DNA from: Naegleria gruberi
Taxonomy: Eukaryota
NCBI GenBank assembly: GCA_000004985.1
Contig: GG738872.1
Direction: 5' to 3' (one strand)
DNA length: 64,000 nucleotides
The notes under the pieces are model-generated. The model saw only the letters and a program-made list of their open reading frames with translations. It was not told where the DNA came from and did no database searches. Shown piece after piece: positions 5,873 to 62,213 of this stretch (within the stretch, counting starts at the first letter, position 1; each line of letters begins with the position of its first letter). A program made the position numbers and the translations under genes.

Positions 5873-5998
5873 TTTTTTAATTTTGAAAAGGTTATTCGGA
5901 GCATCAATAATTTGTACTCTCACAAAATAACTCTTTCAAATTTTGACCATCTAAAATAATTTCTAAAAAATATTAACCAACCGACAGAACTCTCAACA

Positions 5999-29820: not shown

Positions 29821-32800
29821 CTATTTGAAATAAGTGAGAGAAAGCAATTGTGATGCAGATGGTCTTTGTTTTGCATCTTTTTCTAACATTTTCAAAACTA
29901 TTCGAATCAATTCTTCAGAATATTCATTGTGTGTTGTTTCCTTCATTTGATTCGTCAAAATTTTAAGTGCATTCTCGGCTTGATTTCCCATTAGCAAGTT
30001 ACCAATCGATGTTGCTAGATCGTTGGTCATGATTTGATAGATTGAAATTCCCAAAGAGAAGATATCCGTGTTAAATGAATATGAACTTCCAAGTGCAACT
30101 TCAGGACTCATATCTGAAAGGTTTCGTTTAAAATTTTAGAATAAACAACTCTCAACTTACAGAAAGGAGTTCCTGCATAGGACTGACCCGACATTTCTTG
30201 ATACTTTTTAGCCAATCCAAAATCTGCCAATACAATTTCAATACTGTCACTTGACAGTTTCTTGATAAAAATATTAGTTGGCTTAATATCTCTGTGAATA
30301 ATTTCCATTTCTTCGTGAACGTATTTCAATGCGCTCAACATTTGTTTCAAAATTTGCTTTACAATCTCTTCCCCACAATTTTCTTGTTTCAATTTTGATA
30401 AATCTCCCAATTCATAAAAATCCATGTCAATAATCAACAAATTATCATTCGTAATGAAATAGTCATTAATTTTGATAATATTTGGATGTTTGGTATTACT
30501 TAATTGAGATGCTTCTTTCATAATTGTGTTCAAATCTGTCAATGATTCGAATTTAACAGTCTTGATTGCTTTCAATTTGTTTGTTTTTAAATCTCGCACT
30601 TTGTAAACACTTCCAAAAGCTCCTTGTCCAATTCTTGAAATATCACCATATCTGGAAAATGGATTCGATTGATCAGAGCCAGAAGATGATGAGATAATCA
30701 TTGAACTAATAGAAAGGAAGGTACTTTCCCAAAGTTCACCCTTTCTAGTTTCCAATTCAGCTATTTCACAATCCTCATGCTTTTTCTTCTTCTTTACCAA
30801 ACACATGAATATTACAACAATGAAAATTATCAATGCAAGAAGCAAAATCAAGACGAATACAACAACTATTGGTACGACAATGGCAATGATCAACCCAGTT
30901 GCTGTAAAATCCTGACTTTTCTGAATTTCACAAAACTCTCCTTCAAATCCACTCTTACATTGACAAATGTTAAAATCAGAACATTGTCCATTTCCATTAC
31001 AAACAGTTTCAGATATTGCTAATGTTCCATTACAAGTCAATTTGGAATCGCATGTATTATTCCAAGAATTATAGATGGAGTTTTCATCACGACAATAGGG
31101 ACTAACCTTTCGAATATAAGAATTGCCATCAATGAGAAAGATTTCTCCACTACTTTCGTCATAGTCAACTTGTCTTGAGAACAAAGTAAACATTGAATAG
31201 GTTCCAAATCCATCTCCATTGAATTTTGAGGCTTTAGATCTTGAACCAGCAATATCCAACAGTAATCCGCTTTGTTTCGAATACATTCGAATAATACAAG
31301 TACCAACACCATCCAAAATAATGATATCTCCATTCTTTTTCACATGGAAAGCAGAAGGATTGTCTAAGGATGATTGAAGTGCTGGAATTCCATCTCCTGA
31401 ATATCCTACTTGGAAATTACCAACTAGAGTTCTCAAATAAAAAGTAGTTTCGGATAACTTTTCGATTCGTCTAATGGATTCTGGCGTACAAAAATAGAAA
31501 TAACCATCTTGGTAGAGAAGATTTGTTATTTGTCCTGTACTTGTTTCGTTACTAATTATTCCATCAGAAGAAATTGGAATTCTATTTGAGAATGCAAATT
31601 CTAATGAAATTAATTGACTTTTCAGATTATATCTAATTATGGAAAAAGGTGTGGATAACAGTAAATCACCATTTGTATCATCAATGGTCATTCCAGTTAC
31701 AGTGTTAAATGCTGGACAAGGCGAATCAGTTCCCTTTACACCAATCAAAAACGAACCACACGACTTTCCAATAATTTTTTCGAAACTCATAGTTTCCGGG
31801 TCGATTCGAATAATTCTACAAATGTCCTTAATATAGATTTTTCCATCAAACTTGGAAAAGATTCCATAATTCCTAACCACATTTGGCAATATATTCAATG
31901 TTAAATAGGGTGTATCTATTGGAGCATTTTGGTTTGTAAACATTGAAGTACTGAGAGAGATTGACTTTCCACTAGTTTCGTCAAATTTCTTCAAAGTTCT
32001 ATTATCAATAAAGTAGATGATCTTCCTTGTTGAATCTCTCATTAAAATAAATGGGTTTAAAGTTCTGCTACTTGGGGTTATTCCAGCAATGGTTGCAATT
32101 TTTCTATTCGAAATTTCACTAATGTGAAAAAGATTCGTCACAATAATGCTCGAGTTTTGTCTGATAGCTGAAGGGAAATATCTTTTAAACGAGTTTCGTA
32201 TTGAATTTGAAATAAATTGAACACTTACAGAGCAGAATTTTCTATTGGAATATTCTCACCATTGAATCCAGTAATATGGAAGGGTTGAATATTATTCGAA
32301 ACATTGACTTGTAGGCCAGAAATTTTCTTCAGTGAACAGTTTTCCAATTGAAAATCATAGAGTTGACCTGCATTCCAAAAAAATAGAGCATTTTTACCAT
32401 TCTTGGAAATTCCATTAAAAGGAAAAGTTGTTGGAATTGGAATAGTAATAACTGACGTTGATCCATTCTTAAAATCGAGATATTCGTACAGAGTATTCAC
32501 AGCATTCGAATAGGAAAATATTGAATTACAATTAGGATATCTTAAATTTGGAAAAATACTAATTCCATCATTCCCTTTTTCTATAATTGGTAAAGTATAC
32601 AAAACAGTTGAATTTTGAACAGCTAGTACAAAATTAGGAGCATTTCTAACAAAAATTGTCGAATTGTCAAACGAATCTCCAACTGCAGCCAACAAGGAAG
32701 AAGAAATATATGGCGCGGTAGAAAATACAAATTTCAAAATTTGATTTTCCAAATTGAAATTGTAAATTCGACCACTATCACTATAAATTAATAAATCACC

Positions 32801-40451: not shown

Positions 40452-41533
40452 AATAAAAGATATATATTTTCCAAATAATTCTTAAATCAATTATTCCTCT
40501 TATTGTTTTAATAAAAAGAAGAAGGAATGATGTAAAAAGTATTGCAATATTAACTAGCTAATGGGTATTTCTGGTATACCTCGATCAGCAACGATATATT
40601 GACGACCTATATTCAAATTAATGGTGCGCTGCAGCCTAAAACAATGGAGCAGAGACGGGGACTTGAAATTGTTGAGTAACATCCATCGTAGAATAATTCC
40701 GTTCACGATCAAATTATTTGCAAAATTCTTACGATTATGGTGCTACCATTTTTTTAAAAATATTAATAAAAATAATTATCTAGAAGATATTCAACACAAA
40801 GATTCGTCAACTAATTTACTTCAAGAAATTAGAATATCTTTTAAAAAATCATCTTTTTGACATCATGGTTGACAATAATACCATCATTAAATAAGCGCCT
40901 ATAATAATTGTTTTGGCGCAAATTCCTAATAAGGTCGCTTTGTTTTTGTACAATTCAACAAAAAGAGTCTTATTTTTGTCTTCAACAAAGCACAACATCA
41001 AAGCAAGCTTAACCAAGAGATTCACAAGAACTAATGGAGGCTCTTTGAAAAATAAATCAAAAAAAAACATCAATTTGGTTTTTGCTTGAGACACAACGGT
41101 TCAGAGTTTTATTTAGCCAAATTCCTATCTATCAATAATCTAGAAAATCGATCTGATTATTTTTCGGAATTGTCTTTTACTAGTGATTAGTAATAATAGA
41201 AAGTCTTAAGCTAAAAGCTCCGAAGAGTAAGTAGAGTCATATTTAATGTTTCTGACATTTGGTTCTGTATGAATACAATCTTGATGGTGCACTATGCTAC
41301 TTTTGTGATACTACTGTTTTAAATAACAAATCTGATCATCATTGTTGTATACAAATATATTTGTATTCAATTTAATAATACTGTGGATCACAACTTTTTG
41401 TATTGGACGGATTACTATTCCAATTTTATACAATCACCTTTTATTAATCTACCAACAACACTTCTTACAACAATCACTGTGTATTCTTATACTCATCAAC
41501 ACTCGAAAAAACCAAAACAACAACAACAAAACG

Positions 41534-44500
41534 ATGCAACCAATAGAAAATATGTTCTCTGGTCTCCTAGATTCGAGTAACAAACAAAACGAGGACTCCT
41601 CCAATGAAGTCACTTCAGTGGACAGTCCCTCAAAATCTAAAAAAGTGTCTGGTATTAGACGTGCTGCTTCAATTCAAGTCGGATTGAGTGATTTCGAATT
41701 GAGTGGTACTAATGTGCCTAATCCAGAATCTATTTCTTTAACACATTTGAGTAAATATGCTATCACTCTGGCTGGTATGCACGAAGTAGTAGAAGAAAAG
41801 AAGGAATTTGTCAAGCTTATCAAGAGATTAGACGAAACAGCCAGTATTATTACTCAAGCACACGATATTATTTATGAGGCAATTATGCAAAATCGTCGTA
41901 TTACTAGTAGTGATGAATGGTTGGTCGATAATTTTTGGATGATCAAGGAACAAATCCACATGACAAAAAAACACTTGCCACTAGGATATGAAAAGGAAAT
42001 GCCAAAGTTGAATAATACAAAATGTGCAGGTTATCCACGTATTTATGGTATTATTTGGGAATTGATTAACTTGGTAAATGGTCAAGTAACAGAAGAGAAT
42101 ATTTTCCAATTTGTCAAATCTTATCAATCTGTCAAACCATTGACAATTGGTGAATGTTGGGGTATTGGTGTTATGCTTCGTTTAGGTCTTTTAGAAAATA
42201 TTAGACGTGTTGCTGATGGTATTATTAGCAGAAGACAAGATTGTAACCTGGCTGATGCTTGGGCAGATCGTTTATTAACTAGTGCTGAAAAGAGTAGTCG
42301 TGATGTTGTTCAAATTCTGTATCAATTATCACAAAGTGAACCTATTATTACAAATGCTTTCGTCTTACAAATTAGTCAACGTTTACAAGGTTCTGATCCT
42401 GTTCTTTCAATTGTAAATACATGGTTAGAACAACAATTGAGTATTAAGGGTATTGATATCGATCAAATTTTCAGAATGCAAAAGCAAGCTAACTCTTCTA
42501 ATCAAGTTACAATGTCATATTCTATTAACTCTTTGAGATTAATTAACAATTTTAATTGGAAAGAGTTTGTTGAAAAATTGAGTCATATGGATGTTATTCT
42601 TCGTAAGGATCCTTCTGGTATTTATTCATATCAAAATTTCCATACCAGAGATAGATGTAGACACGCTATTGAAAGAATTGCAAAGAGATTCAAGATTGAT
42701 GAAAAGCAAGTTGCCAACAAGGCACTTTCCCTAGCAAAGGAAAATCATGAAGTTTTACAGTCATGTGTTTTAGGATCACCAAGAAGAACAAGGTCTGGTA
42801 GTGATGCTGAACCTCCAAGCTCTCCTGGATCCTCTCCTACTGCTCTCTCACCTCGTAGTGCTAGTAATGTTATTAGGAATATGAATCCAGATCAAATGTA
42901 TGACATGAAACTTATTCGTAGAAAAGCTTGTATTACCTATTGGTTGCTTGAAGATGAAGGTATTAAGGAATTGCATAGAGCTTTAGGTTTTAGAATGAGT
43001 CGTTTACCATTTTCATTTGATTTAAGATTCCCAAGCTTTATTACTTCAATTATTTTCTGGACTTGCTTATTTGCTATTGCTTACATTTTCATGACAAAAC
43101 ATTCTTACCAAACACAATTTGATAGATATCTTCCATTTAGTGGAGTGGAAAGTTTGAAATTATATTTTGTTTATGAAAAGTATCTTGCCTTGGTTTTATT
43201 GTATATATCAGTTTTATTTGTAGGAAGTCAACTTGCTGTTAGTTTGACTAACATGACTTTTGTTAGACTCAAATATCCAGCATCGTTGCCATCTATGGAT
43301 TTCAGTACAACAGGTATTCCTGATGAACACAGATCTATTGTTGTAGTACCAACAATGATAACAAGTTCAGATGGTATTAATGAATTATTGTCAGATTTAC
43401 AAGGTAGATATCTTATTAACAGGGACAAGAATATTGTGTTTGGTTTAATTACTGATTTTGGAGATTCAAAGACTGAAACTACTGAAAAAGATGATGCTCT
43501 CGTCAAGCAAGTTGTTGATGGTATCAATGAATTGAACAAAATGTACACAAGAACTCCTGAAGAACAAAGATACTCCAAGACAACTTTCTTCCTCTTCCAC
43601 AGAAAGAGATTGTACAATCCAGTTGAAAAAGTTTTCATGGGTTGGGAACGTAAGAGAGGTAAATTGGCTGAATTCAATACATTTATTTTACATGGTGAAA
43701 AGGGAAGTTTCAGTCATATTATTGGTGATACTACCAATTTGAATACTGTCAAACACGTCATTACATTGGATACTGATACCATGTTACCTTCAGATGCTGC
43801 TCGTGGTTTGGTTGAAATTGCTGCTCACGTTTTGAACGAACCTGTTATTGATAATCAAACTAAACGTGTTACTCATGGTTATGGTTTGCTTCAACCTCGT
43901 GTTAGTAATGGTTTTACTGGTTCTACTAAGTCACTCTATGCTTATATGCACAGTATGGATTCTGGTTTGGATCCTTATACTAGAGAAGTTAGTGATGTTT
44001 ATCAAGATACTTTTGGTGAAGGTTCATTCATTGGAAAGGGTTTGTACAATGTTGAAACTTTTGAAACTGTTTGTGGCGAAAAGTTCCCAGAAAATAGAAT
44101 TCTCAGTCACGATTTGATTGAAGGTTGTTTTGTCAGATCTGGATTGACTTCTGGTATTGAAGTTATTGAAGATTATCCATCAAGTTATGGTGTTGAAGCC
44201 TCTAGAAGACATCGTTGGATTAGAGGTGACTGGCAAATTGCTAGTTATGCTTTCAGTCCTTTCATCTTGACTGCCAAGGGTTATGAAAAGAATACCTTGT
44301 CTGCATTGCATAGATGGAAGATTTTCGACAATTTGAGAAGATCTCTCGTTCCAGCTGCTATGACTTATTTGATTATGAGTACTGCTTTGTTCACTTCCTA
44401 TCACTCCAAGTTGCCATTCGTTGCTGTTCTCGCTGTTCTTTCAATTTATCTCATTCCAACAACAATCAATACTATTATTGATGTTGTCAAGAAACCTGAA

Positions 44501-47500
44501 GATGCTACTTGGCAAGAGCACTTTAAGAGAATCCGTTTCAATCTCTTACGTACTTTTGTTGATATTTATGTTGAATTGGTATTCACTCCTTTCGAAGCTT
44601 ACAACAATATTGATGCTATTATTCGTTGTTTATTCAGATTGTATGTTAGTGGTAAAGGTCTTTTGGAATGGACAACCTTCCAATCTGCTAGTAGTATTTA
44701 CAAGACTAATTTGTTCTTGGCCATGTCTAGATTGTTGTGGTTCCCAGTCTTGTTGACTACCTCTATTATTGCTTACATTGTCATTCAACATAATACTGCT
44801 GTTGCTTATAATGAATGGCAAACGTATGGTTTCACTAGAAGACCATTCATGTTGGCCAGTAATCTTATTACCATTATTCTCATGTTTGCCAGTTGGATTC
44901 TTTCACCATTCATTGCCTACTACTTGAGTAAGCCATTGAAGAAGAATCTCTTTGAGAGAGAAAATTTCAATGACCTCACCAAGGATGACAAGGTCTTCTT
45001 GCATGTCTTGTCTCGTAGAACTTGGAGATTCTTTGAAACATTTGTCAGAAAGGAAGATAACTATCTCCCACTCGATAACTACCAAGATTTCCCAAAGCCA
45101 ATGCTTGCTCGTAGAACCAGTCCAACTAATATTGGTCTTGCTTTGCTTGCCAATTTGGGTGGTCACGACTTTGGTTATATTACTAATAATGAATGTGTCA
45201 CTCGTATTCACAATACTTTGTCTACACTTTCCAACATGGATCGTTATAAGGGACATTTCTACAATTGGTATGATACTCAAGATTTAAGACCATTGTGGCC
45301 TAAATACATCAGTGCTGTTGACAGTGGTAACTTGGTTGGTCACTTACTCATTTTGAAGGCAGGTTTGGTTGAATTGAGCGACAACGTTCCAATTATTAAT
45401 ACTGATACTTATGTTTCTGGTTTGAGAGACAACTTGTACAGTATGCAATTCATCCTCAAAGAAGTTGAAAAGACAACCGATACTGACGAAGAAGAACTCG
45501 TTTACTTTGACATTAATGAAATCAAGCCAATGATTGAAGACTTGCACACCAAGTTGGATAACAAACCAACTAAGATTTCCAAATTGATTCGTTGGTACAC
45601 TGAAATTAAGGCCAGTTCCAAGAAATTGGAAGAAAGCTTGAATGAATCCCTCAACAAGCTTATTGAAGCCAGTAAGGATGACAGTCAAGCAGATATTGAA
45701 TGGCTCGCTGAAGACATTGAAGAAAGGTGTGAAAAGCAACTCTTATTCTATTCTCAATCATTCGTTCATCTAGTCTCTGAAATTGCTCAAGAATTGAATG
45801 AATTGGTTCCATTCTCCAAGCATTGGGATTTGCCTGAGGAATTAGTTTCACCTCCAAGCTCATTGGCTGGACTTTTAGAAAATGAAGCTATCACTCAATT
45901 CACTCAACAATTCAACAAGATGAATATTGAACAATTGACTCTCAGAGGTATTCTTGGTGTCAAGGAACAATTAGGTATTTCAAAGGTTAGTAAGGTATTG
46001 GGAAGCCTTAAAGTTACTGGTTCAACCTCTAATTTATCATCTGGACCAAAGGGAGTTGAAGCTTTGAAACGTTGGGTTACAGAATTGGAAGAATCCATTG
46101 TCAATGCTGAAAGTGAAGCCAAGAAGCGTTGTAACAAGTTGAAACGTCTCATCAATACTACTGATGATTTGATCAAGCAAGACTTTAGCTTCTTGTATAA
46201 TCCATCTCGTGATTTGCTTGTCATTGGTTACAATGTTGAATCTGACAGAATTGATCAAGCTCACTACGACATGTTCTGTTCTGAAGCTCGTCTTATCAGT
46301 TACGTTGGTATTGCTTTGGGCTATTTCCCAGTTAAACATTGGTTCTCCATGAGTCGTCTTATTACCACTCAAGGTACTCACCCAGCATTATTGTCATGGT
46401 CTGGTTCTGCCTTTGAATATTTGTTGCCACTCAACGTTATGCCAAATATTCCAGGTACTCTCCTCGATTCTACCTACCATGCTGTCGTCTTACGTCAAAT
46501 TGAATATGGTAAACAAAAGAATATTCCTTGGGGTATGAGTGAAAGTGCTTACAATTTGATGGATGCTAATCTTGTTTATCAATATGGTCCATTTGGTGTT
46601 CCAGGTTTGGGTTTGAAGAGAGGTTTGTCTAATGACTTGGTTGTTGCACCATATGCTACTGTTATGAGTTTGATGGTTCTTCCAAAACAAGCCACCAAGA
46701 ACTTGAGACGTTTGAACGAAATGAATTTCTTGGGTTGTTATGGTATGATTGAATCTGTTGACTTTACTCCTCACAGATTGAGAGGTAATATTGATGCTCA
46801 ACCAATCAAATCTTTCTTTGCTCACCACCAAGGTATGTCATTCCTCAGTTTGTTGTACTGTTTGAAGGCACAACCAATGCAAAGAAGATTTATGGCTGTT
46901 CCAGAATTTGCTGCCAACGTTTTGTTGCTTCAAGAAAAGATTCCAACAGTTCCACACATTTCCAATCCAAATGAAAAGGAAACAGAACGTTGGAAGAATG
47001 TTGGCTACAATCTCCCTTGTGCTAACAGACAATTCCAAGGTTTACACACCTATCCAGAAGTTCACATGCTCAGTAATCACGCCTTGCACGTAATGTTAAC
47101 TGTTAACGGTGGTGGTTACATTAAATATGAAGATATGAGTGTTACCAGATGGAGAGAAGATGCCACTCTTGATGGTTATGGTGTTTTGATTTATTTCAGA
47201 GATATGCAAGATAAGACTGATGTCTGGTCTGCTACATCCACACCAATCAAGGCCTCTAATGATAGTAATTATTCAGTCACTTTCAGTCAAGCTCGTGCTG
47301 AATTTAGAAGAAAACACAAGGGAATGACCACAGAAACAATTGTTACAGTTTCTCCATTGGATAATGTTGAAGTTAGACGTGTTAAATTTACCAATAATAC
47401 TAACAAGACAAAGGAAATTGAATTTACCAGTTATGGTGAAGTTGTTTTGAATCAAGGACGTGCTGATGCTGCTCACAGAGCCTTCTCTAACTTGTTTGTC

Positions 47501-50500
47501 GGTACTGAAATTCTTCATCAACAAAATGCCATCCTCTTCTACAGAAAGCAAAGAGATCCAAAAGACAAGAAGGTCTTTGGTTTCCACATTTTATTCGTTC
47601 ACGAACCAAAGAATATTATTGCCGAATCAACCTTTGAAACTGATAGAAGTAGTTTCTTAGGTAGAGGTTATACCATGCAAAGACCAAAGGCTCTCTCTGA
47701 CGACCTTGGTCCACTCTCAAATACTTCTGGTTTCCCTCTTGATCCAATCTTTGCTATTCGTCAATGTTTGAGAATCAAGCCAGGTAGAACTGTTCACATT
47801 GATTATATTACTGGTGTTGCTTTCTCCAAGGAAGACGCTATCAGTGTTATTAAGAAGTATCAAAGCAAGAAGACAACTAACCACGTTGTTAACTTTGCTT
47901 GGGTTGCCTCTGAAAAGCTTTGCTTCCGTTTGGGTATTACTGAAATTGAAGCTCAATTGTTCTCAAAGTTGGCTGGTTGTATCCTCTATTCTAATCCACG
48001 TTATCGTGCTCCACCTGGTCTTATTACCAAGAATAAGAATAATCAATCTGGTTTGTGGAAGTTTGGTATTTCTGGTGATATTCCACTCATTTTGGTTCGT
48101 GTTTGCGATCTTGAACAATCATTCTTTATGCAACAAGTTCTCCAAGCTCACGCTTATTGTAGATGCAAGGGTGTTAAATTTGATTTGGTTATTTGGAACG
48201 ATGAAACAACTCACTATCGTGACTTGCTCAATCAAACTCTCCATCATATCATGTCCCACATTCCAGGTTCAACTGATTTATTGCATCAACCTGGTGGTAT
48301 TCACCCTGTTAGAGGTGACAGTTTGACCTCATTTGAAACTGTCTTGTTGTACTCTGTTGCTCGTGTCGTTTTATCTGACAATGGTGGTAGCTTAACAGAT
48401 CAAATTAACAGAACTTCCAAGAAGGGATACGTTGTTCCTCCATTCCGTGTTATTACTCAACCTCGTGTCATTAAGGATACAATGAATACAGTTCCAAAGT
48501 TGCATGAAAGAGACCTCATTTTGAGAAACGATGTTGGTGGTTTCGATGCTAAGCGTAAGGAATATGTCATGATGTTGGGCAAGAATCATGTTACTCCAAA
48601 GCCATGGTGTAACGTTTTGGCTAACGATAGATTTGGTTCAGTCATCTCTGAAAAGGGTAGTGCTTACTCATTCTTCACTAATGCTCACGAATACAGATTG
48701 ACTCCATTTAACAATGATGCTGTCCTCGATAACTCTGGTGAAGCATTCTATATTAGAGATGAAAGCACTGGTCAATACTGGTCACCAATGCCTCAACCTG
48801 TACCAATTGATAGAGATGATTACTATTACATTTGTAGACATGGTATTGGTTACAGTACTTGGGAACATTTCCATGATGGTATTCATACTGAAACTACCAC
48901 ATTTGTTCCACAAAATGAACCTGTCAAGATTATCTTGATCCGTGTAACTAACAATAGTGGTTTTGATAGAAACTTGACTGTTACTGGTTTTGTTGAATGG
49001 GTTTTGGGTGAATTGAGAGAATTGAATGCTCCACACATTATTACTGATGTTGAAAGAACTGACAATAGTACAGCTGTTATTGCTAGAAATAACTTCCATA
49101 TTCAATTGTCTCACTTTGTTGGTTTTATGTCCGTTATTGGTCACAAGGAAGGTACAATTACTGGTGATAGAAATGAATTTATTGGAAGTAATGGTACTCT
49201 TGATAGACCTCAAGCTATGAAACAACAATACCTCTCAGGAAATGTTGGTGCTGCTTTCGATCCATGTGCTGCTATTCAAGTTCCAATCACTGTCGAAGAT
49301 GGTAAAGTTGTTGAAGTTGCATTCATGATTGGTGCCAACTATTCTAGAGATGGTGCTAAGGATGTCATTTCTCGTATTCGTAGTAACCTCATTGTTAGAC
49401 AATTATTGAACAGTGTTAAGGCCTTCTGGCACTATAATCTCAACACTATTCAAGTTGAAACTCCAAGCCCTGATTTGGATGTTTTGGCCAACGGTTGGTT
49501 GTTGTACCAAGTTTTGTCTTCTCGTATTTGGGGTAGATCTGGTTTCTATCAATCCAGTGGTGCTTTTGGTTTCAGAGATCAATTGCAAGATACTATGGCT
49601 GTTGCCTCTGTAATGCCTCAAATTTTGAGACAACAAATTCTCACCAATTGTGAACATCAATTTGAAAAAGGTGACGTATGCCATTGGTGGCACGACATTA
49701 CTAACAGTGGTGTCAGAACTACATTCAGTGACGACTACTTGTGGCTTCCACTCGCTGTTGCTCACTATTTGGAAATTACTGAAGATTACAAATTACTCCA
49801 CGAAAGAATTAGATTCTGTAAGCTCAGAGAAATTGAACCAGGTGAAGAATCAGTCTATGACAAGCTTGAATACACTGAAGAAACTGAAAGTATCTATGAA
49901 CATTGTAAGCGTGCATTGAAGTATGGTTTCAAATATGGTGCTCATGGACTTCCTCTTATGGGATGTGGTGACTGGAACGATGGTATGAATCTCGTTGGTA
50001 TTCATGGTAAAGGTGAAAGTGTTTGGTTGGCATTCTTCTTGTTCCACGTTTTGGAGAACTTTGAAAAGAATATCTTGGAAACTGAAATTAAGGATGATGA
50101 ATTCTTAGAAGAATGTAGAAAGAATCGTGAATACATCAAGGCCAACATTGAAGGACAAGCTTGGGATGGAGAATGGTATCGTAGAGCCTACTTTGATAGT
50201 GGTGAGCCTCTTGGTTCTAAGGAAAATTCTGAATGCCAAATTGACAGTTTGCCACAATCATGGGCTATTATCAGTGGTTGTGTTGATAAGAAGAGAGCTA
50301 AAATGGCCCTTACAAATGCCTATCAAAGGTTGGTCAGACATGACTTGAAGCTTATTCAATTGTTCGATCCACCACTCCAACATCAAGAACCATCTGCTGG
50401 TTACATTCAAGGTTATGCTCCTGGTGTCAGAGAAAATGGTGGTCAATATACCCATGCTTCTATTTGGTTTGCTTGGGCTTATTCCATTCTCAAGGATAAC

Positions 50501-50929
50501 AAGAAGGTTTGGGACTTGTTCGACATTTTGAATCCAATCAACCATGCCAAGACTAAGGAAGATGTTTGGAAATACAAGGTTGAACCATACGTTGTCACTG
50601 CTGATATTTACACATTGATGGATCACGAAGGTGAAGGTGGTTGGAGTTGGTTCACTGGTTCTGGTGGTTGGTTCTATAGATTAATCTTGGAAAGACTCAT
50701 TGGTATCAAGAAGCAAGGTAACTCTCTCAAATTCGATCCATGTCCAAAGGAAGATTGGAAGAAGTATAACATTAATTATCAACATGGCAAGACTGCTTAC
50801 CAAATTCAAGTTACAAGATCTGAAGAAAATGTCATGATTGTTGATGGTGTTAAGAGAGCTGATCCAACTCGTATTCCACTTGTTGATGACGGAAAGACTC
50901 ACAAGGTTGAAATTTATTACAAGTATTAA
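41534..50929 (+). CDS. cgs: Cyclic beta-1,2-glucan synthase-like giant enzyme (bacterial Cgs/ChvB/NdvB architecture: GT84 glycosyltransferase, TM region, (alpha/alpha)6 glucanotransferase region, GH94 phosphorylase region), 3131 aa, intronless
   Basis: Signature blocks read by eye, in bacterial order: VVVPTMITS...FGLITDFGDS; GWERKRGKLAEFN; TLDTDTMLPSDAA; GYGLLQPRV; SHDLIEGCFVRSG...EASRRHRWIRGDWQ; RRTSPTNIGLALLA; GHFYNWYDTQDLRPL...VDSGNLVGHL; VTRWREDATLDGYGVLIYFRD; GFRDQLQD; GCGDWNDGMN; NGGQYTHA. The first ATG with sensible context is 41534 (MQPIENMF); the track start at 41342 is a TTG in AT-rich leader. Confidence 0.85.
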   Translation: MQPIENMFSGLLDSSNKQNEDSSNEVTSVDSPSKSKKVSGIRRAASIQVGLSDFELSGTNVPNPESISLTHLSKYAITLAGMHEVVEEKKEFVKLIKRLDETASIITQAHDIIYEAIMQNRRITSSDEWLVDNFWMIKEQIHMTKKHLPLGYEKEMPKLNNTKCAGYPRIYGIIWELINLVNGQVTEENIFQFVKSYQSVKPLTIGECWGIGVMLRLGLLENIRRVADGIISRRQDCNLADAWADRLLTSAEKSSRDVVQILYQLSQSEPIITNAFVLQISQRLQGSDPVLSIVNTWLEQQLSIKGIDIDQIFRMQKQANSSNQVTMSYSINSLRLINNFNWKEFVEKLSHMDVILRKDPSGIYSYQNFHTRDRCRHAIERIAKRFKIDEKQVANKALSLAKENHEVLQSCVLGSPRRTRSGSDAEPPSSPGSSPTALSPRSASNVIRNMNPDQMYDMKLIRRKACITYWLLEDEGIKELHRALGFRMSRLPFSFDLRFPSFITSIIFWTCLFAIAYIFMTKHSYQTQFDRYLPFSGVESLKLYFVYEKYLALVLLYISVLFVGSQLAVSLTNMTFVRLKYPASLPSMDFSTTGIPDEHRSIVVVPTMITSSDGINELLSDLQGRYLINRDKNIVFGLITDFGDSKTETTEKDDALVKQVVDGINELNKMYTRTPEEQRYSKTTFFLFHRKRLYNPVEKVFMGWERKRGKLAEFNTFILHGEKGSFSHIIGDTTNLNTVKHVITLDTDTMLPSDAARGLVEIAAHVLNEPVIDNQTKRVTHGYGLLQPRVSNGFTGSTKSLYAYMHSMDSGLDPYTREVSDVYQDTFGEGSFIGKGLYNVETFETVCGEKFPENRILSHDLIEGCFVRSGLTSGIEVIEDYPSSYGVEASRRHRWIRGDWQIASYAFSPFILTAKGYEKNTLSALHRWKIFDNLRRSLVPAAMTYLIMSTALFTSYHSKLPFVAVLAVLSIYLIPTTINTIIDVVKKPEDATWQEHFKRIRFNLLRTFVDIYVELVFTPFEAYNNIDAIIRCLFRLYVSGKGLLEWTTFQSASSIYKTNLFLAMSRLLWFPVLLTTSIIAYIVIQHNTAVAYNEWQTYGFTRRPFMLASNLITIILMFASWILSPFIAYYLSKPLKKNLFERENFNDLTKDDKVFLHVLSRRTWRFFETFVRKEDNYLPLDNYQDFPKPMLARRTSPTNIGLALLANLGGHDFGYITNNECVTRIHNTLSTLSNMDRYKGHFYNWYDTQDLRPLWPKYISAVDSGNLVGHLLILKAGLVELSDNVPIINTDTYVSGLRDNLYSMQFILKEVEKTTDTDEEELVYFDINEIKPMIEDLHTKLDNKPTKISKLIRWYTEIKASSKKLEESLNESLNKLIEASKDDSQADIEWLAEDIEERCEKQLLFYSQSFVHLVSEIAQELNELVPFSKHWDLPEELVSPPSSLAGLLENEAITQFTQQFNKMNIEQLTLRGILGVKEQLGISKVSKVLGSLKVTGSTSNLSSGPKGVEALKRWVTELEESIVNAESEAKKRCNKLKRLINTTDDLIKQDFSFLYNPSRDLLVIGYNVESDRIDQAHYDMFCSEARLISYVGIALGYFPVKHWFSMSRLITTQGTHPALLSWSGSAFEYLLPLNVMPNIPGTLLDSTYHAVVLRQIEYGKQKNIPWGMSESAYNLMDANLVYQYGPFGVPGLGLKRGLSNDLVVAPYATVMSLMVLPKQATKNLRRLNEMNFLGCYGMIESVDFTPHRLRGNIDAQPIKSFFAHHQGMSFLSLLYCLKAQPMQRRFMAVPEFAANVLLLQEKIPTVPHISNPNEKETERWKNVGYNLPCANRQFQGLHTYPEVHMLSNHALHVMLTVNGGGYIKYEDMSVTRWREDATLDGYGVLIYFRDMQDKTDVWSATSTPIKASNDSNYSVTFSQARAEFRRKHKGMTTETIVTVSPLDNVEVRRVKFTNNTNKTKEIEFTSYGEVVLNQGRADAAHRAFSNLFVGTEILHQQNAILFYRKQRDPKDKKVFGFHILFVHEPKNIIAESTFETDRSSFLGRGYTMQRPKALSDDLGPLSNTSGFPLDPIFAIRQCLRIKPGRTVHIDYITGVAFSKEDAISVIKKYQSKKTTNHVVNFAWVASEKLCFRLGITEIEAQLFSKLAGCILYSNPRYRAPPGLITKNKNNQSGLWKFGISGDIPLILVRVCDLEQSFFMQQVLQAHAYCRCKGVKFDLVIWNDETTHYRDLLNQTLHHIMSHIPGSTDLLHQPGGIHPVRGDSLTSFETVLLYSVARVVLSDNGGSLTDQINRTSKKGYVVPPFRVITQPRVIKDTMNTVPKLHERDLILRNDVGGFDAKRKEYVMMLGKNHVTPKPWCNVLANDRFGSVISEKGSAYSFFTNAHEYRLTPFNNDAVLDNSGEAFYIRDESTGQYWSPMPQPVPIDRDDYYYICRHGIGYSTWEHFHDGIHTETTTFVPQNEPVKIILIRVTNNSGFDRNLTVTGFVEWVLGELRELNAPHIITDVERTDNSTAVIARNNFHIQLSHFVGFMSVIGHKEGTITGDRNEFIGSNGTLDRPQAMKQQYLSGNVGAAFDPCAAIQVPITVEDGKVVEVAFMIGANYSRDGAKDVISRIRSNLIVRQLLNSVKAFWHYNLNTIQVETPSPDLDVLANGWLLYQVLSSRIWGRSGFYQSSGAFGFRDQLQDTMAVASVMPQILRQQILTNCEHQFEKGDVCHWWHDITNSGVRTTFSDDYLWLPLAVAHYLEITEDYKLLHERIRFCKLREIEPGEESVYDKLEYTEETESIYEHCKRALKYGFKYGAHGLPLMGCGDWNDGMNLVGIHGKGESVWLAFFLFHVLENFEKNILETEIKDDEFLEECRKNREYIKANIEGQAWDGEWYRRAYFDSGEPLGSKENSECQIDSLPQSWAIISGCVDKKRAKMALTNAYQRLVRHDLKLIQLFDPPLQHQEPSAGYIQGYAPGVRENGGQYTHASIWFAWAYSILKDNKKVWDLFDILNPINHAKTKEDVWKYKVEPYVVTADIYTLMDHEGEGGWSWFTGSGGWFYRLILERLIGIKKQGNSLKFDPCPKEDWKKYNINYQHGKTAYQIQVTRSEENVMIVDGVKRADPTRIPLVDDGKTHKVEIYYKY

Positions 50930-51084
50930 TTAATAAAGTTAAAATAAATTAATTTTAAATCTCTACCAACTTATTAGTTATCCTGATGTCTTTAATTTTA
51001 ACATTTACAGACATAGATGAATCAGATAAGGAATACCACAAGTTAGAATTAGCAAAATAGATTTTATACAATAATATTAATAAA

Positions 51085-52003
51085 TTAATCATCAGCAATA
51101 TAAACTTTCTTTCTGGAAAATATTTTGATGGCTTCGTCAATTTCTTGTAATTTCCTTTCCATATTATTTTTCTTTTGTTGTAAGAATTGAGTATCACACA
51201 ACATTGGAAGCTTATTGATGGCACCCTGCACTTCTCTCTTACTCTTCTCGAGTTCAGTAAGAGTTTCAAGTCTATCTTCTTCAGAAACTAATCTCATTCC
51301 AGGAGGACATTCATCCTTCTTCTTTTGTTCTTCCTTTTCTTTTTGTTCCTTTTCATGTTTGATTGCTTTTCTATCTTTAATGCTATGAATATTTAGCAAA
51401 GAAATTTCAAGATTTAAAAACTTACTATTGAGGCACTCTTCCAAAATCTTCTGGCTTTTCAAAGTCTTCCTTTACAGCTTTCGATGCCACTTTGGCTTCT
51501 CCCTTTTTAGCGATTGATTTCAAATCCTTGGTTGCGTTTTGTACAATATAATTTTTAGAGTCTCTATGTGTGACTGGTTCATTAAATTCCTCCTTCTTAG
51601 GAATTGGTGGTTTCTTCTCGTTGGCTAACATTTCCTTCTCCTTCTTTACTTCAAATGCAATTTCCTTCTTTTTAATATTTTGTTCGGTTATTCTCTCCCT
51701 ATTTGCACCTGATTTCAAATAATTTTCATTCACTGGATTCTCGGGAGTGTAATCTTGTGCTTTAATATCCTTCACCTTTGATTCAACCTCCTTGTATTTT
51801 TGTAGTTTAAATTCTTCCTTCTTGATAGCATCCTTTTCCTTCTTTAATTTATTTTCGTGTTCCTTTTCTTTAAGCGCTTTAAGATTTTGATGCATATGAT
51901 TTTTAGGTATGATACCTTGCTTTTCCTGTACTCCTCTGTATCCGTTCACAGGATGAAGAAAATTTGAAATTTGACTTGAATCCGAATGATGGTGTTTGAT
52001 CAT
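51085..52003 (-). CDS. ENKUR: Enkurin (flagellar/ciliary enkurin-domain protein), 291 aa, 2 exons
   Basis: Exons are 52003..51426 and 51382..51085, with a 43-nt intron (gtaagt...atag). The junction gives EDFGRVPQ|YIKDRK (enkurin GkvPkYL motif). The C-terminal enkurin domain reads PPGMRLVSEEDRLETLTELEKSKREVQGAINKLPMLCDTQ...ERKLQEIDEAIKIFSRKKVYI. Confidence 0.85.
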
Positions 52004-52236
52004 TTTTTTTTATAGTATGGTGGAAATGAATTGTAATTTTGGCGCCAAATGTTAGTTTGTAGTTATTCTTGGCGGGAAATTCTACTTCTCTTTCAGAAAA
52101 GGATATTAATATTCTAATCCTAGAAAATATGAGATTGAGATTGAAAATTATTAAATAATAGTCTGTGATTGATTCTTGTCTGTTCTTTGCAGTACTTTAT
52201 CTATCTCTTTCAAGAGAGATAGAAAACAAAATTGTT

Positions 52237-59927: not shown

Positions 59928-61820
59928 TTACACTCTATTTTCTGGAACTACATTGTGATGACGAATGAGCAATTTGGTAGGTGAAGAAACAATGGCAATA
60001 TTATTGGGTGATCTTGGAGCAGAGACAGAATCTCTTGTCTTGTAAAATTTCTCAGTTTCCAAAGTCTCCAACAATGGGATAAACACAAAGTAAACAATAA
60101 TTAAAAAGCAAACTAATACATCGCAACAAATAAAATTCACAACGTTGAAAAAGCGAACCAGAACATCATAAAGTAATGAGGTTGGCTCTACATTAATGGA
60201 TTGAATGATAGTAAAGAGAACCTCACCACTTTTCCCGAATATTCCAAAAACTGTGAAAAAGCATGTAATGATGATTTGACATGCCAGAACTTTCCTCTTT
60301 AACCTCTTGTTAATTAACTTTCTATAGAGCTTGACACTGTAAAAGTTAAAGGTAATGAAAAATGAAAAATAGAAGGAAATGTAAATAAGGAGAGAACTCA
60401 ATGGAAATGCACAATAACCTCCATATCGTGTCAAGTGACTATAAATAAACTCTAATTTGTGATGTTGAATATTATAGCTTAACACTACATCAACAATAAT
60501 TGAAGCTATTTGAAGAATAGTAAAGAATGAAGTTAGAATGAGTGTACGTATGAAAATGTTGGTGTTTTCCTTTCTGACATTGATGGTAAGATGGGTTCTT
60601 TGGAATTCTTGGACGGACGGTGCATTATTCTTGATAAAGCTTTGCCCATGGTCTCTAGATCTTGGTGATATTTGGATTGGTTCCTCCTTATTACTGCTTG
60701 AATCACTTCGAGGAGATTTGTGAGAGTGTGATTCGGATTTTCTTCTAGAATGATTTCTATCAGAGGTAGATGGTGGCCTTTCTACAATATTTTTACTCGC
60801 AGAGCTAGATCTAAGTAGGGGTTTTACAGACCCATCATCTATTGTAACACCAGTCAAGTGATTATTCTCAGGCAAGTCAAGTTTAGATTCCTCATCAACG
60901 ACAACATCCACCACAGAGGTAGACCTAGCAAGTTTTGGTTTCTTATCTTTTAACTCTTCATCTTCTGCTGCAGTTGTTGTGGTAGCAGCAGCTATTGAAA
61001 CCTTGCTTTTAGGTACTGTTTTTGTAAAGTGAGTATCAGTTTTCTTACTAGGAGTGAGTGTATGACTAAGGATGAATAGCACTGAACATGTAGCAAGTAC
61101 AAATCCGAAAAATTCGAAAGGTTGTATTATTCTACATGCAATGTTATTAGAAATACTGGAAGAGTCATAACTGGTATTTGGATTCTTAATTTCAGTCCAC
61201 CAAGGTTGTTGAAACAGTAATACTAGAATACCAAAGAAGGAATGCACAATAGCACCCAGAAGAGCAATAACTCTCGAAGGCCACAATGATAAGAAATAAT
61301 TCTTTCTATTTCTTATCAGTACAATTAGAGTAATCAGGTAAAAGAGCAAGGTGAGTGTACAAATACTAACTCCCACATATTCCAGCACTGAATCAACTGT
61401 TTGCATACTCTCCGATGCTTCCTTATCATCTGTTATATTGAAAGGTATTGATAAATCCTGTTTTGAAGTTGGAAAATAATTGAAAATGTTAGAAGTTGTT
61501 GTAGTTATTAAATTATCATGTTGATGTGAAGATGAAGAAGAAGATGAAAATATCGAAAATACTGATTCTAATGATGATTGATCTTGTTGTATTAAATTAT
61601 TTAAATTAGCAGCAATATGGTTGTATGAAGAAGAACCCGACGAGAATGAACTCTCTAATTCCTTCTGCCTATAATCACTCTTTGTTATCCACGGTGATAC
61701 TGATGATGATGATGATAAGAAGTCCTTCAGAGATGATACTGCCCCCACCACTGAAGATGATGCCGATAGAAAATCACCAACGGCTTGCCTCAGCAGCAGC
61801 AACATTGTACTATCAGCCAT
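59928..61820 (-). CDS. Multi-pass (about 7 predicted TM) membrane protein with a long Ser/basic-rich internal loop, 630 aa, function unknown
   Basis: Long ORF with its first ATG at 61820 (MADSTMLLLL); the track start at 61853 is a TTG. Three hydrophobic helices, a ~200-aa hydrophilic loop, and four more helices, judged by eye. Confidence 0.6.
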   Translation of the reverse strand: MADSTMLLLLRQAVGDFLSASSSVVGAVSSLKDFLSSSSSVSPWITKSDYRQKELESSFSSGSSSYNHIAANLNNLIQQDQSSLESVFSIFSSSSSSSHQHDNLITTTTSNIFNYFPTSKQDLSIPFNITDDKEASESMQTVDSVLEYVGVSICTLTLLFYLITLIVLIRNRKNYFLSLWPSRVIALLGAIVHSFFGILVLLFQQPWWTEIKNPNTSYDSSSISNNIACRIIQPFEFFGFVLATCSVLFILSHTLTPSKKTDTHFTKTVPKSKVSIAAATTTTAAEDEELKDKKPKLARSTSVVDVVVDEESKLDLPENNHLTGVTIDDGSVKPLLRSSSASKNIVERPPSTSDRNHSRRKSESHSHKSPRSDSSSNKEEPIQISPRSRDHGQSFIKNNAPSVQEFQRTHLTINVRKENTNIFIRTLILTSFFTILQIASIIVDVVLSYNIQHHKLEFIYSHLTRYGGYCAFPLSSLLIYISFYFSFFITFNFYSVKLYRKLINKRLKRKVLACQIIITCFFTVFGIFGKSGEVLFTIIQSINVEPTSLLYDVLVRFFNVVNFICCDVLVCFLIIVYFVFIPLLETLETEKFYKTRDSVSAPRSPNNIAIVSSPTKLLIRHHNVVPENRV

Positions 61821-62213
61821 TTTTCTTTTCTTTTTGGCGCCAATTACTACCAAAATGTAACTGCTTTCTCCAAAATGTTCAACTAGCCGTTATCGAGTTT
61901 TTCTCCTATAGCTAAAACGAACGTTTAACTTTAAGGATATAAGAAAATATATTCACAGCTGAATGATCACACCTTTGCAAAGTGTTATTAGATGAAGGTT
62001 CATTATTTTATAAAAGGATCAAGAAGTGAATCAACTCTAAATTGGCTCTGGTCTTTTTCAAGCGAATATCCCCACAATATTATCAAAAGAAGATTGAAGA
62101 TAAGAATAAATTCATAACAATAACCAATAGATAGCACAATCCATTGGCCACACATAATGAACCTTGATCAAGTGAGTGCCGAAGAAGAAATTTCTTAACA
62201 ACAATAAGAAAAA

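What the first reader, a model, noticed from the sequence alone, without database searches (positions are those of the whole stretch)
41534..50929. Complete bacterial-type cyclic beta-1,2-glucan synthase encoded in a eukaryotic chromosome
The 3131-aa ORF contains, in the bacterial Cgs/ChvB/NdvB order, every signature block I could check:
- GT84 glycosyltransferase: LDTDTML, GWERKRGKL, RHRWIRGDWQ.
- Membrane-spanning segment.
- Glucanotransferase/(alpha/alpha)6 region: RRTSPTNIG, GHFYNWYDT, VDSGNLVGHL.
- GH94 phosphorylase region: VTRWREDATLDG, GFRDQLQD, GDWNDGMN, GGQYTHA.

These enzymes are known from alpha-proteobacteria (Brucella, Agrobacterium, Sinorhizobium), where cyclic glucans act in osmoadaptation and host interaction. 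Here the gene is contiguous with intron-containing eukaryotic genes (RhoGEF upstream, enkurin downstream). It has an AT-rich eukaryotic leader. By eye it shares the T/C-ending codon preference (ggt, gct, gtt, act, tct, cgt, aag, ttc) of the bona fide eukaryotic NUP210 gene in the same window. That argues for an old, fully ameliorated horizontal acquisition that is probably well expressed, rather than contamination. Its role in an amoeboflagellate (osmolyte, cyst or cell-surface glucan, interaction with bacteria) is unknown.
Basis: partly seen in the sequence, partly recalled or inferred. Interest (0 to 1): 0.75.

Follow-up and report, generated by a model that had tools for sequence, protein, structure and literature searches.

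The report
Cyclic glucan synthase gene in Naegleria
The amoeboflagellate Naegleria gruberi carries, as a genuine and well-conserved nuclear gene, a complete copy of the giant enzyme bacteria use to make ring-shaped beta-1,2-glucans; the same gene is in the brain-eating N. fowleri and in a small group of other eukaryotes, and nobody seems to have studied it.

Summary
Window 41534-50929 (+) is one intact 3131-aa ORF, identical to N. gruberi NAEGRDRAFT_58230 (EFC43584.1), deposited as 'predicted protein'. It aligns over three stretches spanning most of its length with the cryo-EM-solved Agrobacterium Cgs (1624 bits). All 14 residues checked are invariant: GT84 D/DxD/D/RW, primer Tyr, GH189 Glu nucleophile and acid/base, GH94 Asp.

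It is not contamination:
- The flanking ORFs are exact N. gruberi proteins.
- The window begins with a telomere.
- N. fowleri and N. lovaniensis have orthologues (86% identity to the N. fowleri protein). In N. fowleri the downstream enkurin neighbour is the same.
- Codon usage is host-like (GC3 0.30; RSCU r=0.95 with NUP210).
- dN/dS is 0.07.

New here: Naegleria belongs to a eukaryote-only Cgs clade (100% bootstrap). It has at least 11 members, including a Diphylleia rotans transcript and an environmental polyadenylated cDNA with a retained GT-AG intron. The clade is about 43% identical to each of three bacterial groups, so the donor is unresolved. The one alpha-proteobacterial Cgs compared scores lower than those groups.

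The transfer is therefore old, and may have spread between eukaryotes. The product and its cellular role are inferred, not shown. I found no literature on a eukaryotic Cgs.

Verdict: new member of a known kind, moderately high interest.

The parts
41534..50929 (+). [quoted passage not shown]
   Evidence: (exact sequence match)
41534..43003 (+). N-terminal scaffold domain (NTD, residues 1-~490), with a Naegleria-specific Ser/Pro-rich loop at about residues 405-454. The start may be Met7 (41552), which aligns with the N. fowleri start.
   Evidence: 105 bits to Atu Cgs NTD; insertions
43037..43240 (+). Transmembrane helices 1-2 (hydrophobic segments 502-520 and 551-569)
   Evidence: Kyte-Doolittle scan; position matches the Atu Cgs TM region
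43256..44323 (+). GT84 glycosyltransferase domain with D641, D746-x-D748, primer Tyr815 (43976-43978), catalytic base D860, R894-W895
   Evidence: residue roles from PMC10901819
44333..44902 (+). Transmembrane helices 3-6 (about 934-952 is my reading of the sequence and did not reach the scan threshold; 960-978, 1067-1085 and 1105-1123 passed it)
44981..46933 (+). Cyclization domain (CY / GH189, (alpha/alpha)6) with acid/base E1584, E1628, nucleophile E1670, H1764-H1765. It contains a variable helical insert at residues 1283-1545 (45380-46168).
   Evidence: residue roles from PMC10834661
46934..50926 (+). GH94 phosphorylase (length-control) region: supersandwich domains and catalytic domain, with D2682 and catalytic acid D2816
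51061..52036 (-). Downstream enkurin-family gene, split into several homology blocks. It is the conserved neighbour of cgs in N. fowleri, so it serves as context and synteny anchor.
40452..41533 (+). AT-rich (GC 0.29) 5' intergenic region and leader between NAEGRDRAFT_58229 and cgs

Best explanation
This is a genuine nuclear gene of Naegleria gruberi, about 41 kb from a telomere. [quoted passage not shown]

Inferred mechanism, by homology to the Agrobacterium enzyme:
1. The protein sits in a membrane with all catalytic domains in the cytosol.
2. The GT84 domain uses UDP-glucose to glucosylate Tyr815 and extends a beta-1,2 chain.
3. The GH94 domain trims the chain by phosphorolysis, which controls its length.
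4. The GH189 domain, with nucleophile E1670 and acid/base E1584, releases the chain as a ring of roughly 17-25 glucoses by transglycosylation.

Origin: the gene came from bacteria in one old transfer that predates the divergence of N. gruberi from N. fowleri and N. lovaniensis. It belongs to a small eukaryote-only clade, so the transfer was either much older than Naegleria or was followed by spread between eukaryotes. The donor is unresolved, and the one alpha-proteobacterial Cgs compared is a more distant relative than three other bacterial groups.

Shown: gene integrity, host integration, conservation of all catalytic residues checked, purifying selection, clade structure. Inferred: the product, the membrane topology, and any cellular role. 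My leading guess for the role is a cytosolic or compartment-trapped osmoprotective or sequestering glucan.
For: Identity and integrity:
- Intact ORF, exact match to EFC43584.1.
- Alignment to the solved Atu Cgs in three stretches spanning most of the length.
- 14 of 14 functional residues invariant in 8 eukaryotic and 25 bacterial sequences.
- Five hydrophobic segments at the bacterial TM positions passed the scan threshold; a sixth (about 934-952) is inferred by eye.

Host integration:
- Flanking ORFs are exact N. gruberi proteins.
- A (CCCAAA)n telomere lies at window start.
- GC3 is 0.304, within the neighbours' range of 0.257-0.346. RSCU correlates r=0.84 with the pooled neighbours and r=0.948 with NUP210.
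- Orthologues exist in N. fowleri (778-kb contig) and N. lovaniensis.
- The cgs-enkurin microsynteny is conserved between N. gruberi and N. fowleri.

Function retained: dN/dS between N. gruberi and N. fowleri is 0.07 overall, and 0.048-0.106 in the four main domains (0.167 in the variable CY insert), with dS saturated at 1.29.

Eukaryotic clade:
- NJ tree, 2799 columns: the eukaryotic clade has 100/100 bootstrap support.
- L003 is a polyadenylated SMARTer cDNA with a retained 44-nt GTATGT...ACAG intron.
- A Diphylleia rotans transcript is a member.
- Further members are P0130, P0154 and P0155.

Bacterial origin: 5645 homologous representative clusters, of which only 2 are eukaryote-type.
Against: - No enzymatic, glycan or expression data exist for any eukaryotic member.
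- The tree is distance-based (NJ), midpoint-rooted and has no alpha-proteobacterial outgroup. The eukaryotic clade is therefore not shown to be nested inside bacteria, only to be a rare long branch joining three bacterial groups.
- No ChvA/NdvA-type exporter or glucan-modifying gene lies in the 64-kb window. Where the product goes is open.
- The Diphylleia sequence comes from a transcriptome and could derive from a co-cultured eukaryote.
- In bacteria the GH94 catalytic acid is dispensable for function, so residue conservation alone does not fix the product's size.
Confidence: 0.8

Rival explanations
1. The enzyme is real and active, but in eukaryotes it makes something other than free cyclic beta-1,2-glucan. 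Candidates are a linear beta-1,2-glucan, a protein- or lipid-linked glucan, a cyst or surface polymer, or rings of unusual size.
For: The product is inferred only from homology. The CY helical insert (residues 1283-1545) is the fastest-evolving part, with dN/dS 0.167. Naegleria has lineage-specific Ser/Pro loops. No exporter lies nearby.
Against: The cyclization nucleophile, the acid/base and the supporting E and HH residues are invariant in all eukaryotic members. The CY domain is under purifying selection (dN/dS 0.106). Selection is unlikely to have kept these residues if cyclization had been abandoned.
Confidence: 0.12
2. The gene is an ancient eukaryotic gene, vertically inherited from an early eukaryote and lost almost everywhere, rather than a horizontal acquisition.
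For: The eukaryotic sequences form one clade with 100% support. That clade is not nested in any of the three sampled bacterial groups and is equidistant from them at about 43%. Members come from at least two supergroups: Discoba, and CRuMs if the Diphylleia transcript is authentic.
Against: Only 2 of 5645 representative clusters are eukaryote-type. Among named eukaryotic sources only Naegleria and Diphylleia appear. This reading would require a very large number of independent losses. The enzyme family is otherwise purely prokaryotic in the literature searched.
Confidence: 0.06
3. Bacterial contamination or a chimeric assembly join: the 41-51 kb segment is not Naegleria DNA.
For: The protein is of bacterial type and intron-less. 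The window contains two assembly gaps (1169-5508 and 10573-10807).
Against: - The gaps are more than 30 kb away from the gene.
- Both flanks are exact N. gruberi genes on one scaffold.
- Codon usage and GC3 are host-like.
- The independently assembled N. fowleri and N. lovaniensis genomes carry orthologues, and N. fowleri has the same enkurin neighbour.
- N. gruberi and N. fowleri share 78-83% nucleotide identity across the gene, with unalignable intergenic DNA.
- The closest bacterial protein is only about 43% identical.
Confidence: 0.01
4. Decaying relic: the gene was acquired but no longer functions.
For: No expression data were available to me.
Against: - The 9.4-kb ORF has no stop codon.
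- dN/dS is 0.07 at saturated dS.
- All catalytic residues checked are retained in all 8 aligned eukaryotic-clade sequences.
- Full-length transcripts of relatives exist.
Confidence: 0.01

Closest known systems
[quoted passage not shown] 2024, PMC10901819), and the Brucella and Sinorhizobium homologues
   Same: Same domain order and similar length (3131 vs about 2830 aa). Same GT84 D/DxD/D/RW motifs, same primer tyrosine in the IF1h loop, same CY acidic residues, same GH94 catalytic Asp. TM segments lie in the same places.
   Different: The host is a eukaryote. The score is only 1624 bits, so Agrobacterium is a more distant relative than beta/gamma-proteobacterial and planctomycete Cgs at about 2500 bits. 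The unaligned CY helical insert is longer (about 264 vs about 139 residues). Naegleria adds Ser/Pro-rich loops in the NTD. No ChvA-type exporter gene is nearby.
Cgs of uncultured and isolate Betaproteobacteria (Thiobacillus, Hydrogenophilales, Ferriphaselus), Pirellulaceae/Blastopirellula, and delta/Omnitrophica-type MAGs (P0007-P0120)
   Same: These are the closest bacterial sequences: 42-44% identity over the 2799 aligned columns kept for the tree, with an almost identical indel pattern. Against them Naegleria has only six small insertions of 8 aa or more.
   Different: All three groups are equally distant from the eukaryotic clade, and none is its specific sister.
TiCGS cyclization domain, founding member of GH189 (PDB 8wy1; Tanaka et al. 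2024, PMC10834661)
   Same: E1356, E1400, E1442, H1536 and H1537 correspond to Naegleria E1584, E1628, E1670, H1764 and H1765, all conserved.
   Different: The solved TiCGS protein is the isolated domain of a Gram-positive enzyme. Here the domain is embedded in the full-length membrane enzyme.
Eukaryote-clade Cgs homologues: N. fowleri FDP41_002565, N. lovaniensis C9374_012379, Diphylleia rotans EP00002_P003193, and environmental P0002-P0005, P0130, P0154, P0155
   Same: They form one clade with 100% bootstrap support, at 52-89% identity over the aligned columns, with the same architecture and invariant catalytic residues.
   Different: All are unannotated or mis-named ('hypothetical protein', 'N,N'-diacetylchitobiose phosphorylase', 'cellobiose phosphorylase'). 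One (L003) has acquired a 44-nt spliceosomal intron. One (P0005) has an 87-aa insert in the GT domain.

Membership tests
[quoted passage not shown] | Single polypeptide with the order NTD, TM, GT84, TM, cyclization domain, GH94 phosphorylase | tested here: met
   phmmer to 8rf9 gives three collinear stretches covering query 121-403, 563-1282 and 1546-3096. Pfam finds Glycoamylase plus two GH94 families. Hydrophobic segments lie at 502-569 and 960-1123.
[quoted passage not shown] | GT84 catalytic set: UDP-coordinating D527 and D624(xD626), catalytic base D739, R773 of the RW motif (Atu numbering) | tested here: met
   Naegleria D641, D746, D748, D860, R894 and W895 are invariant in 33 of 33 sequences.
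[quoted passage not shown] | Autoglucosylated primer tyrosine in the IF1-homology loop (Atu Y694) | tested here: met
   Naegleria Y815 in GLDPYTREVSDVYQD aligns to Atu Y694 and is invariant in 33 of 33 sequences. Only the residue was tested, not the modification.
GH189 (CGS cyclization / beta-1,2-glucanotransferase domain) | Nucleophile Glu (TiCGS E1442), acid/base Glu (E1356), and supporting E1400, H1536, H1537 | tested here: met
   Naegleria E1670, E1584, E1628, H1764 and H1765 are invariant. 8wy1 matches at E=1.5e-112.
GH94 phosphorylase domain of Cgs | Catalytic acid Asp (Atu D2528) and D2393; supersandwich plus (alpha/alpha)6 catalytic domain | tested here: met
   Naegleria D2816 and D2682 are invariant. 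PF06165 E=1.5e-151 and PF17167 E=6.7e-106.
[quoted passage not shown] | Converts UDP-glucose into cyclic beta-1,2-glucans of DP about 17-25 | not testable with these tools
   This needs a biochemical assay or glycan analysis. None was found in the searched literature.
Bacterial cyclic-glucan system (Cgs + ChvA/NdvA/Cgt exporter + Cgm) | A dedicated ABC exporter and a succinyl-modifying enzyme acting on the product | not tested
   Only the 64-kb window could be examined. Pfam scans of its ORFs of at least 190 aa show no ABC transporter. The rest of the genome was not searchable.
Horizontally acquired gene (bacteria to eukaryote) | Physically integrated in the host genome and ameliorated | tested here: met
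   Exact N. gruberi flanking genes, telomere, synteny with N. fowleri, host codon usage.
Horizontally acquired gene (bacteria to eukaryote) | Eukaryotic sequences nested within a specific bacterial donor lineage | tested here: inconclusive
   In the NJ tree the eukaryotic clade (100% support) joins at the node between three bacterial groups. There is no outgroup and no ML analysis.
Horizontally acquired gene (bacteria to eukaryote) | Patchy, rare distribution in eukaryotes against a broad distribution in bacteria | tested here: met
   2 eukaryote-type clusters among 5645 representative clusters. The only named eukaryotic sources are Naegleria spp. and Diphylleia.

The most novel reading that the evidence does not exclude
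A eukaryote-specific lineage of cyclic beta-1,2-glucan synthases exists and is active. Free-living and pathogenic Naegleria (including N. fowleri), Diphylleia and several uncultured protists would then make cyclic beta-1,2-glucans themselves. This would overturn the working assumption that these glucans are bacterial products. It would offer a candidate enzymatic source for reports of such glucans from eukaryotic material (Chlorella), although no algal member of the family was found here. In N. fowleri it would provide a human-absent target and possibly an immunomodulatory or osmoprotective factor like that of Brucella. The clade's topology would reflect gene spread between distant eukaryotes.
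Probability: 0.5. Interest if true: 0.75.

Novelty: new member of a known kind. Interest (0 to 1): 0.6.

Why it matters
[quoted passage not shown] The 2025 review of cyclizing enzymes does not mention eukaryotes as producers' enzymes at all. A conserved, selected, full-length synthase in Naegleria makes three things directly testable.

1. Whether eukaryotes synthesize these rings.
2. What a cytosol-facing Cgs does in a wall-less freshwater amoeba that has no periplasm: osmotic buffering, encystment, sequestration of lipids or metals, or interaction with prey bacteria.
3. Whether the N. fowleri orthologue, which has no human counterpart, matters for pathogenesis or is druggable.

Evolutionarily, it is a clean example of a 9-kb multi-domain bacterial machine being kept intact after transfer and shared among distant protists. 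One lineage has already gained a spliceosomal intron.

Tried and rejected
- NCBIfam gave no family for the protein, so no curated equivalog could be cited.
- The look-up of encoding contigs found no record for the window protein or for the two exact flanking N. gruberi proteins. The original scaffold annotation therefore could not be viewed.
- The first homology search did not list the N. gruberi protein, because its 90% cluster is represented by a 1438-aa fragment. An exact look-up resolved this.
- A search with residues 1-700 only returned only proteins up to about 1200 aa and added one eukaryote-type fragment (P0130).
- A scan of IMG/VR for a viral vector found 16 'viral' contigs with Cgs. 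They are bacterial-type (48% identity to P0007, about 43% to Naegleria, GC 0.49), not close to the eukaryotic clade, so I dropped the idea of a viral vector.
- I considered whether the 87-aa insert in P0005 is a retained intron. It is in frame, has no GT-AG borders and has ORF-like GC, so I rejected that.
- Literature searches by accession, by 'Naegleria' plus Cgs, GH94, GT84, ndvB or chvB, and by the automatic names returned nothing relevant.
- I did not run structure prediction. The protein exceeds the 1200-aa limit, and sequence alignment to solved structures was already decisive.
- I could not name the organisms behind SRR29541317, SRR32315873, SRR8654739 or JGI 3300043818.
Full report
**Observation.** The window holds one uninterrupted reading frame from 41342 to 50929 on the plus strand. 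Its first ATG is at 41534, giving 3131 aa. Pfam assigns a Glycoamylase-type (alpha/alpha)6 domain at 1581-1774, two GH94 supersandwich stretches (E=1.5e-151) and the GH94 catalytic domain (E=6.7e-106). NCBIfam has no model for it. [quoted passage not shown] It matches in three collinear stretches covering the N-terminal domain, the TM+GT84 region and the CY+GH94 half. The next match is the isolated cyclization domain of Thermoanaerobacter italicus CGS (8wy1, E=1.5e-112), followed by stand-alone GH94 phosphorylases.

**Whose DNA it is.**
- The window starts with 372 bp of perfect (CCCAAA)n followed by degenerate variants, that is, a chromosome end.
- Four flanking ORFs are letter-for-letter identical to N. 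gruberi NEG-M proteins NAEGRDRAFT_58229, 68321, 58232 and 68309.
- The 3131-aa ORF itself is exactly EFC43584.1 / XP_002676328.1 / D2VHG4, named only 'predicted protein', NAEGRDRAFT_58230.
- It was missing from the first homology list because its 90% cluster is represented by a 1438-aa environmental fragment.
- The sequence has therefore been public since the 2010 genome, but without a functional name.

**Not contamination, not a relic.**
- N. fowleri (FDP41_002565, on a 778-kb contig) and N. lovaniensis (C9374_012379) carry orthologues. The N. fowleri protein is 86% identical.
- Between N. gruberi and N. fowleri the gene aligns at 78-83% nucleotide identity along its length, while the intergenic DNA does not align.
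- The downstream minus-strand enkurin gene is conserved as neighbour in N. fowleri. The upstream neighbour has been rearranged: the N. fowleri upstream gene corresponds to N. gruberi 59928-61853 (-).
- GC3 of the gene is 0.304, inside the range of eleven other window genes (0.257-0.346). Its RSCU correlates r=0.84 with their pool.
The codon profile matches that of NUP210 (17537-22393 -) at r=0.948, far better than any other gene in the window (0.63-0.80), with T-ending codons at 46%.
- Nei-Gojobori dN/dS between N. gruberi and N. fowleri is 0.07 overall at saturated dS (1.29). By domain it is NTD 0.070, TM+GT 0.083, CY 0.106 and GH94 0.048. Only the helical insert of the CY domain is somewhat relaxed, at 0.167.

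**Catalytic competence.** I took residue roles from Sedzicki et al. 2024 (PMC10901819) and Tanaka et al. 2024 (PMC10834661). I transferred the numbering through the printed phmmer alignments. The 8rf9 chain index equals paper numbering minus 19, and the 8wy1 index equals paper numbering minus 1003. The Naegleria equivalents are:

| Domain | Reference residue and role | Naegleria residue |
|---|---|---|
| GT84 | Atu D527, UDP coordination | D641 |
| GT84 | Atu D624/D626, DxD | D746/D748 |
| GT84 | Atu Y694, covalent glucan primer site | Y815 |
| GT84 | Atu D739, catalytic base | D860 |
| GT84 | Atu R773 and the adjacent W, RW motif | R894/W895 |
| CY / GH189 | Atu E1300 = TiCGS E1356, acid/base | E1584 |
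| CY / GH189 | TiCGS E1400 | E1628 |
| CY / GH189 | TiCGS E1442, nucleophile | E1670 |
| CY / GH189 | TiCGS H1536/H1537 | H1764/H1765 |
| GH94 | Atu D2393 | D2682 |
| GH94 | Atu D2528, catalytic acid | D2816 |

In a MAFFT alignment of 8 eukaryote-clade and 25 bacterial proteins all fourteen positions are invariant. Hydrophobic segments fall at 502-520, 551-569, 960-978, 1067-1085 and 1105-1123, plus about 934-952 by eye. These are the places where the bacterial enzyme has its six helices. Relative to the nearest bacteria, Naegleria has only six small insertions. The largest is a Ser/Pro-rich loop at 405-454.

**Mechanism (inferred by homology).** The protein is anchored by about six helices, with all catalytic domains on the cytosolic side. 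GT84 glucosylates Tyr815 from UDP-glucose and extends a beta-1,2 chain. The GH94 domain limits its length by phosphorolysis. The GH189 domain transfers the chain onto its own end and releases a ring. Only the sequence prerequisites are shown here. The product, the topology and the membrane are inferred. No ABC exporter of the ChvA/NdvA kind is encoded in the 64-kb window. The rest of the genome could not be searched.

**Relatives and origin.** Among 5.8 billion clustered proteins, the hits after Naegleria are four unnamed sequences at 50-55% identity from Logan or JGI assemblies (P0002-P0005). Next is a Diphylleia rotans transcript from EukProt at 47% (P0006). Only then come bacterial proteins at about 40-47%.
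- The contigs behind P0002-P0005 are 9-11 kb and consist almost only of the gene, so they look like transcripts.
- One of them, L003 from JGI 3300043818, ends in a 24-nt poly(A) followed by the reverse complement of the SMARTer cDNA primer. It also contains a retained 44-nt intron with GTATGT...ACAG borders, and removing it restores the conserved ...THL|DHYAVTLAG... frame. That organism is a eukaryote, and the gene has acquired a spliceosomal intron there.
- L004 has upstream minus-strand ORFs in two frames that look like exons of a CCDC24-like gene.
- An exhaustive HMMER search of 1.84 billion 50%-identity representatives with residues 1-700 found 5645 homologues. Only two are of the eukaryotic type. 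P0154 is 75% identical to both N. gruberi and N. fowleri, so it is probably another close heterolobosean. P0155 is 64% identical to P0002. All others are 42% identical or less and closer to bacterial sequences.
- With P0130 (74% to P0002), the eukaryotic clade has at least eleven distinct members.

**Phylogeny.** I built a neighbour-joining tree on 2799 well-aligned columns with 100 bootstraps. It recovers the eukaryotic sequences as one clade with 100% support. The internal order is (P0004,(Diphylleia,((P0002,(P0003,P0005)),Naegleria))). The clade is 42-44% identical to each of three bacterial groups: a Thiobacillus/Hydrogenophilales/Ferriphaselus type, a Pirellulaceae/Blastopirellula type, and a Pseudomonadota-MAG/delta/Omnitrophica type. 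No group is its specific sister. Agrobacterium scores clearly lower (1624 vs about 2500 bits), so on the one alpha-proteobacterial sequence compared, that group is a more distant relative than these three. The tree is distance-based and midpoint-rooted, so nesting within bacteria is not demonstrated. The case for a bacterial origin rests on the extreme asymmetry of distribution. A scan of IMG/VR found Cgs genes on 16 contigs labelled viral, but they are bacterial-type and no closer to the eukaryotes. There is thus no sign of a viral vector.

**Comparison with what is known.** In architecture and residues this is a member of the Cgs/ChvB/NdvB family (GT84 + GH189 + GH94). Every sequence-level defining feature I could test is met, and the enzymatic one cannot be tested here. 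It differs from the studied enzymes in four ways: its eukaryotic host, its membership of a eukaryote-only subclade, the lack of a periplasm for the product to act in, and the lack of a linked exporter. In the searchable literature I found no mention of this gene under any accession. I found no paper linking Naegleria with Cgs, GH94, GT84, ndvB or chvB. The 2025 review of beta-1,2-glucan cyclizing enzymes does not mention eukaryotic synthases. It notes only that cyclic beta-1,2-glucans were once isolated from Chlorella pyrenoidosa. CAZy or InterPro may list the protein automatically; I could not check that.

**Verdict.** The corrections are that the transfer is older and wider than Naegleria, that the donor is unresolved with the one alpha-proteobacterial Cgs compared being a more distant relative, and that expression level and cellular role remain unknown. 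The finding is a new, eukaryotic member (indeed a small eukaryotic subfamily) of a well-understood enzyme family. The gene sequence itself is already public. Interest is moderately high, because it makes eukaryotic synthesis of cyclic beta-1,2-glucan directly testable, including in the pathogen N. fowleri.

Noticed in passing
window 1-475: The window begins with 372 bp of perfect (CCCAAA)n, that is, TTTGGG telomeric repeats read from the other strand. Degenerate CCCAAAAA/CCTAAAAA variants follow. The cgs gene therefore lies about 41 kb from a chromosome end. In N. fowleri the orthologue is about 15 kb from the end of its 778-kb contig.
   Followed up: partly
window 1169-5508 and 10573-10807: There are two assembly gaps (runs of N). 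The ORFs listed at 1148-5923 and 1162-5517 are artefacts of translating N.
   Followed up: yes
window 25495-29055 (+): A 1187-aa hybrid histidine kinase (GAF, HisKA, HATPase_c, response-regulator receiver). This is another bacterial-style signalling protein in the same subtelomeric region.
   Followed up: no
window 17537-22393 (-): The NUP210 homologue shares an unusually T-ending codon profile with cgs (RSCU r=0.948; T3 0.48). Both differ from the other ten genes in the window, which suggests a distinct codon-usage class in N. gruberi.
   Followed up: partly
window 59928-61853 (-) vs L001 6245-8275 (+): The gene immediately upstream of cgs in N. fowleri corresponds to a gene about 9 kb downstream, on the opposite strand, in N. 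gruberi. The neighbourhood has been inverted or rearranged around the conserved cgs-enkurin pair.
   Followed up: partly
L003 255-298: An environmental cDNA of a eukaryote-clade Cgs retains a 44-nt intron (GTATGT...ACAG). It ends in poly(A) plus the SMARTer primer. This is an intron gained in a gene of bacterial origin.
   Followed up: yes
L005, residues about 580-667 of P0005: One eukaryote-clade member has an 87-aa Ser/Pro/Ala-rich insertion inside the GT84 domain. It is in frame, lacks GT-AG borders and has ORF-like GC, so it is a true insertion and not an intron. The gene caller also truncated this protein's N-terminus: the ORF continues up to an ATG near position 57.
   Followed up: yes
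L006-L021 (IMG/VR contigs): Sixteen contigs labelled viral carry full-length bacterial-type Cgs genes (GC about 0.49; 48% identical to P0007). Many derive from isolate-genome UViGs. They are probably over-extended prophage calls rather than phage-borne Cgs.
   Followed up: partly
window 41534 vs 41552: The annotated start (MQPIENM...) precedes a second Met (MFSGLL...), and that second Met aligns with the N. fowleri and N. lovaniensis start (MLSSLL...). The true start may be Met7.
   Followed up: no
window 6541-9303 (-), 10811-13964 (-), 30111-32141 (-): Other genes between the telomere and cgs include a chromo-domain protein, a CitMHS-family transporter abutting a gap, and an EGF-plus-protein-kinase receptor-like protein.
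   Followed up: no
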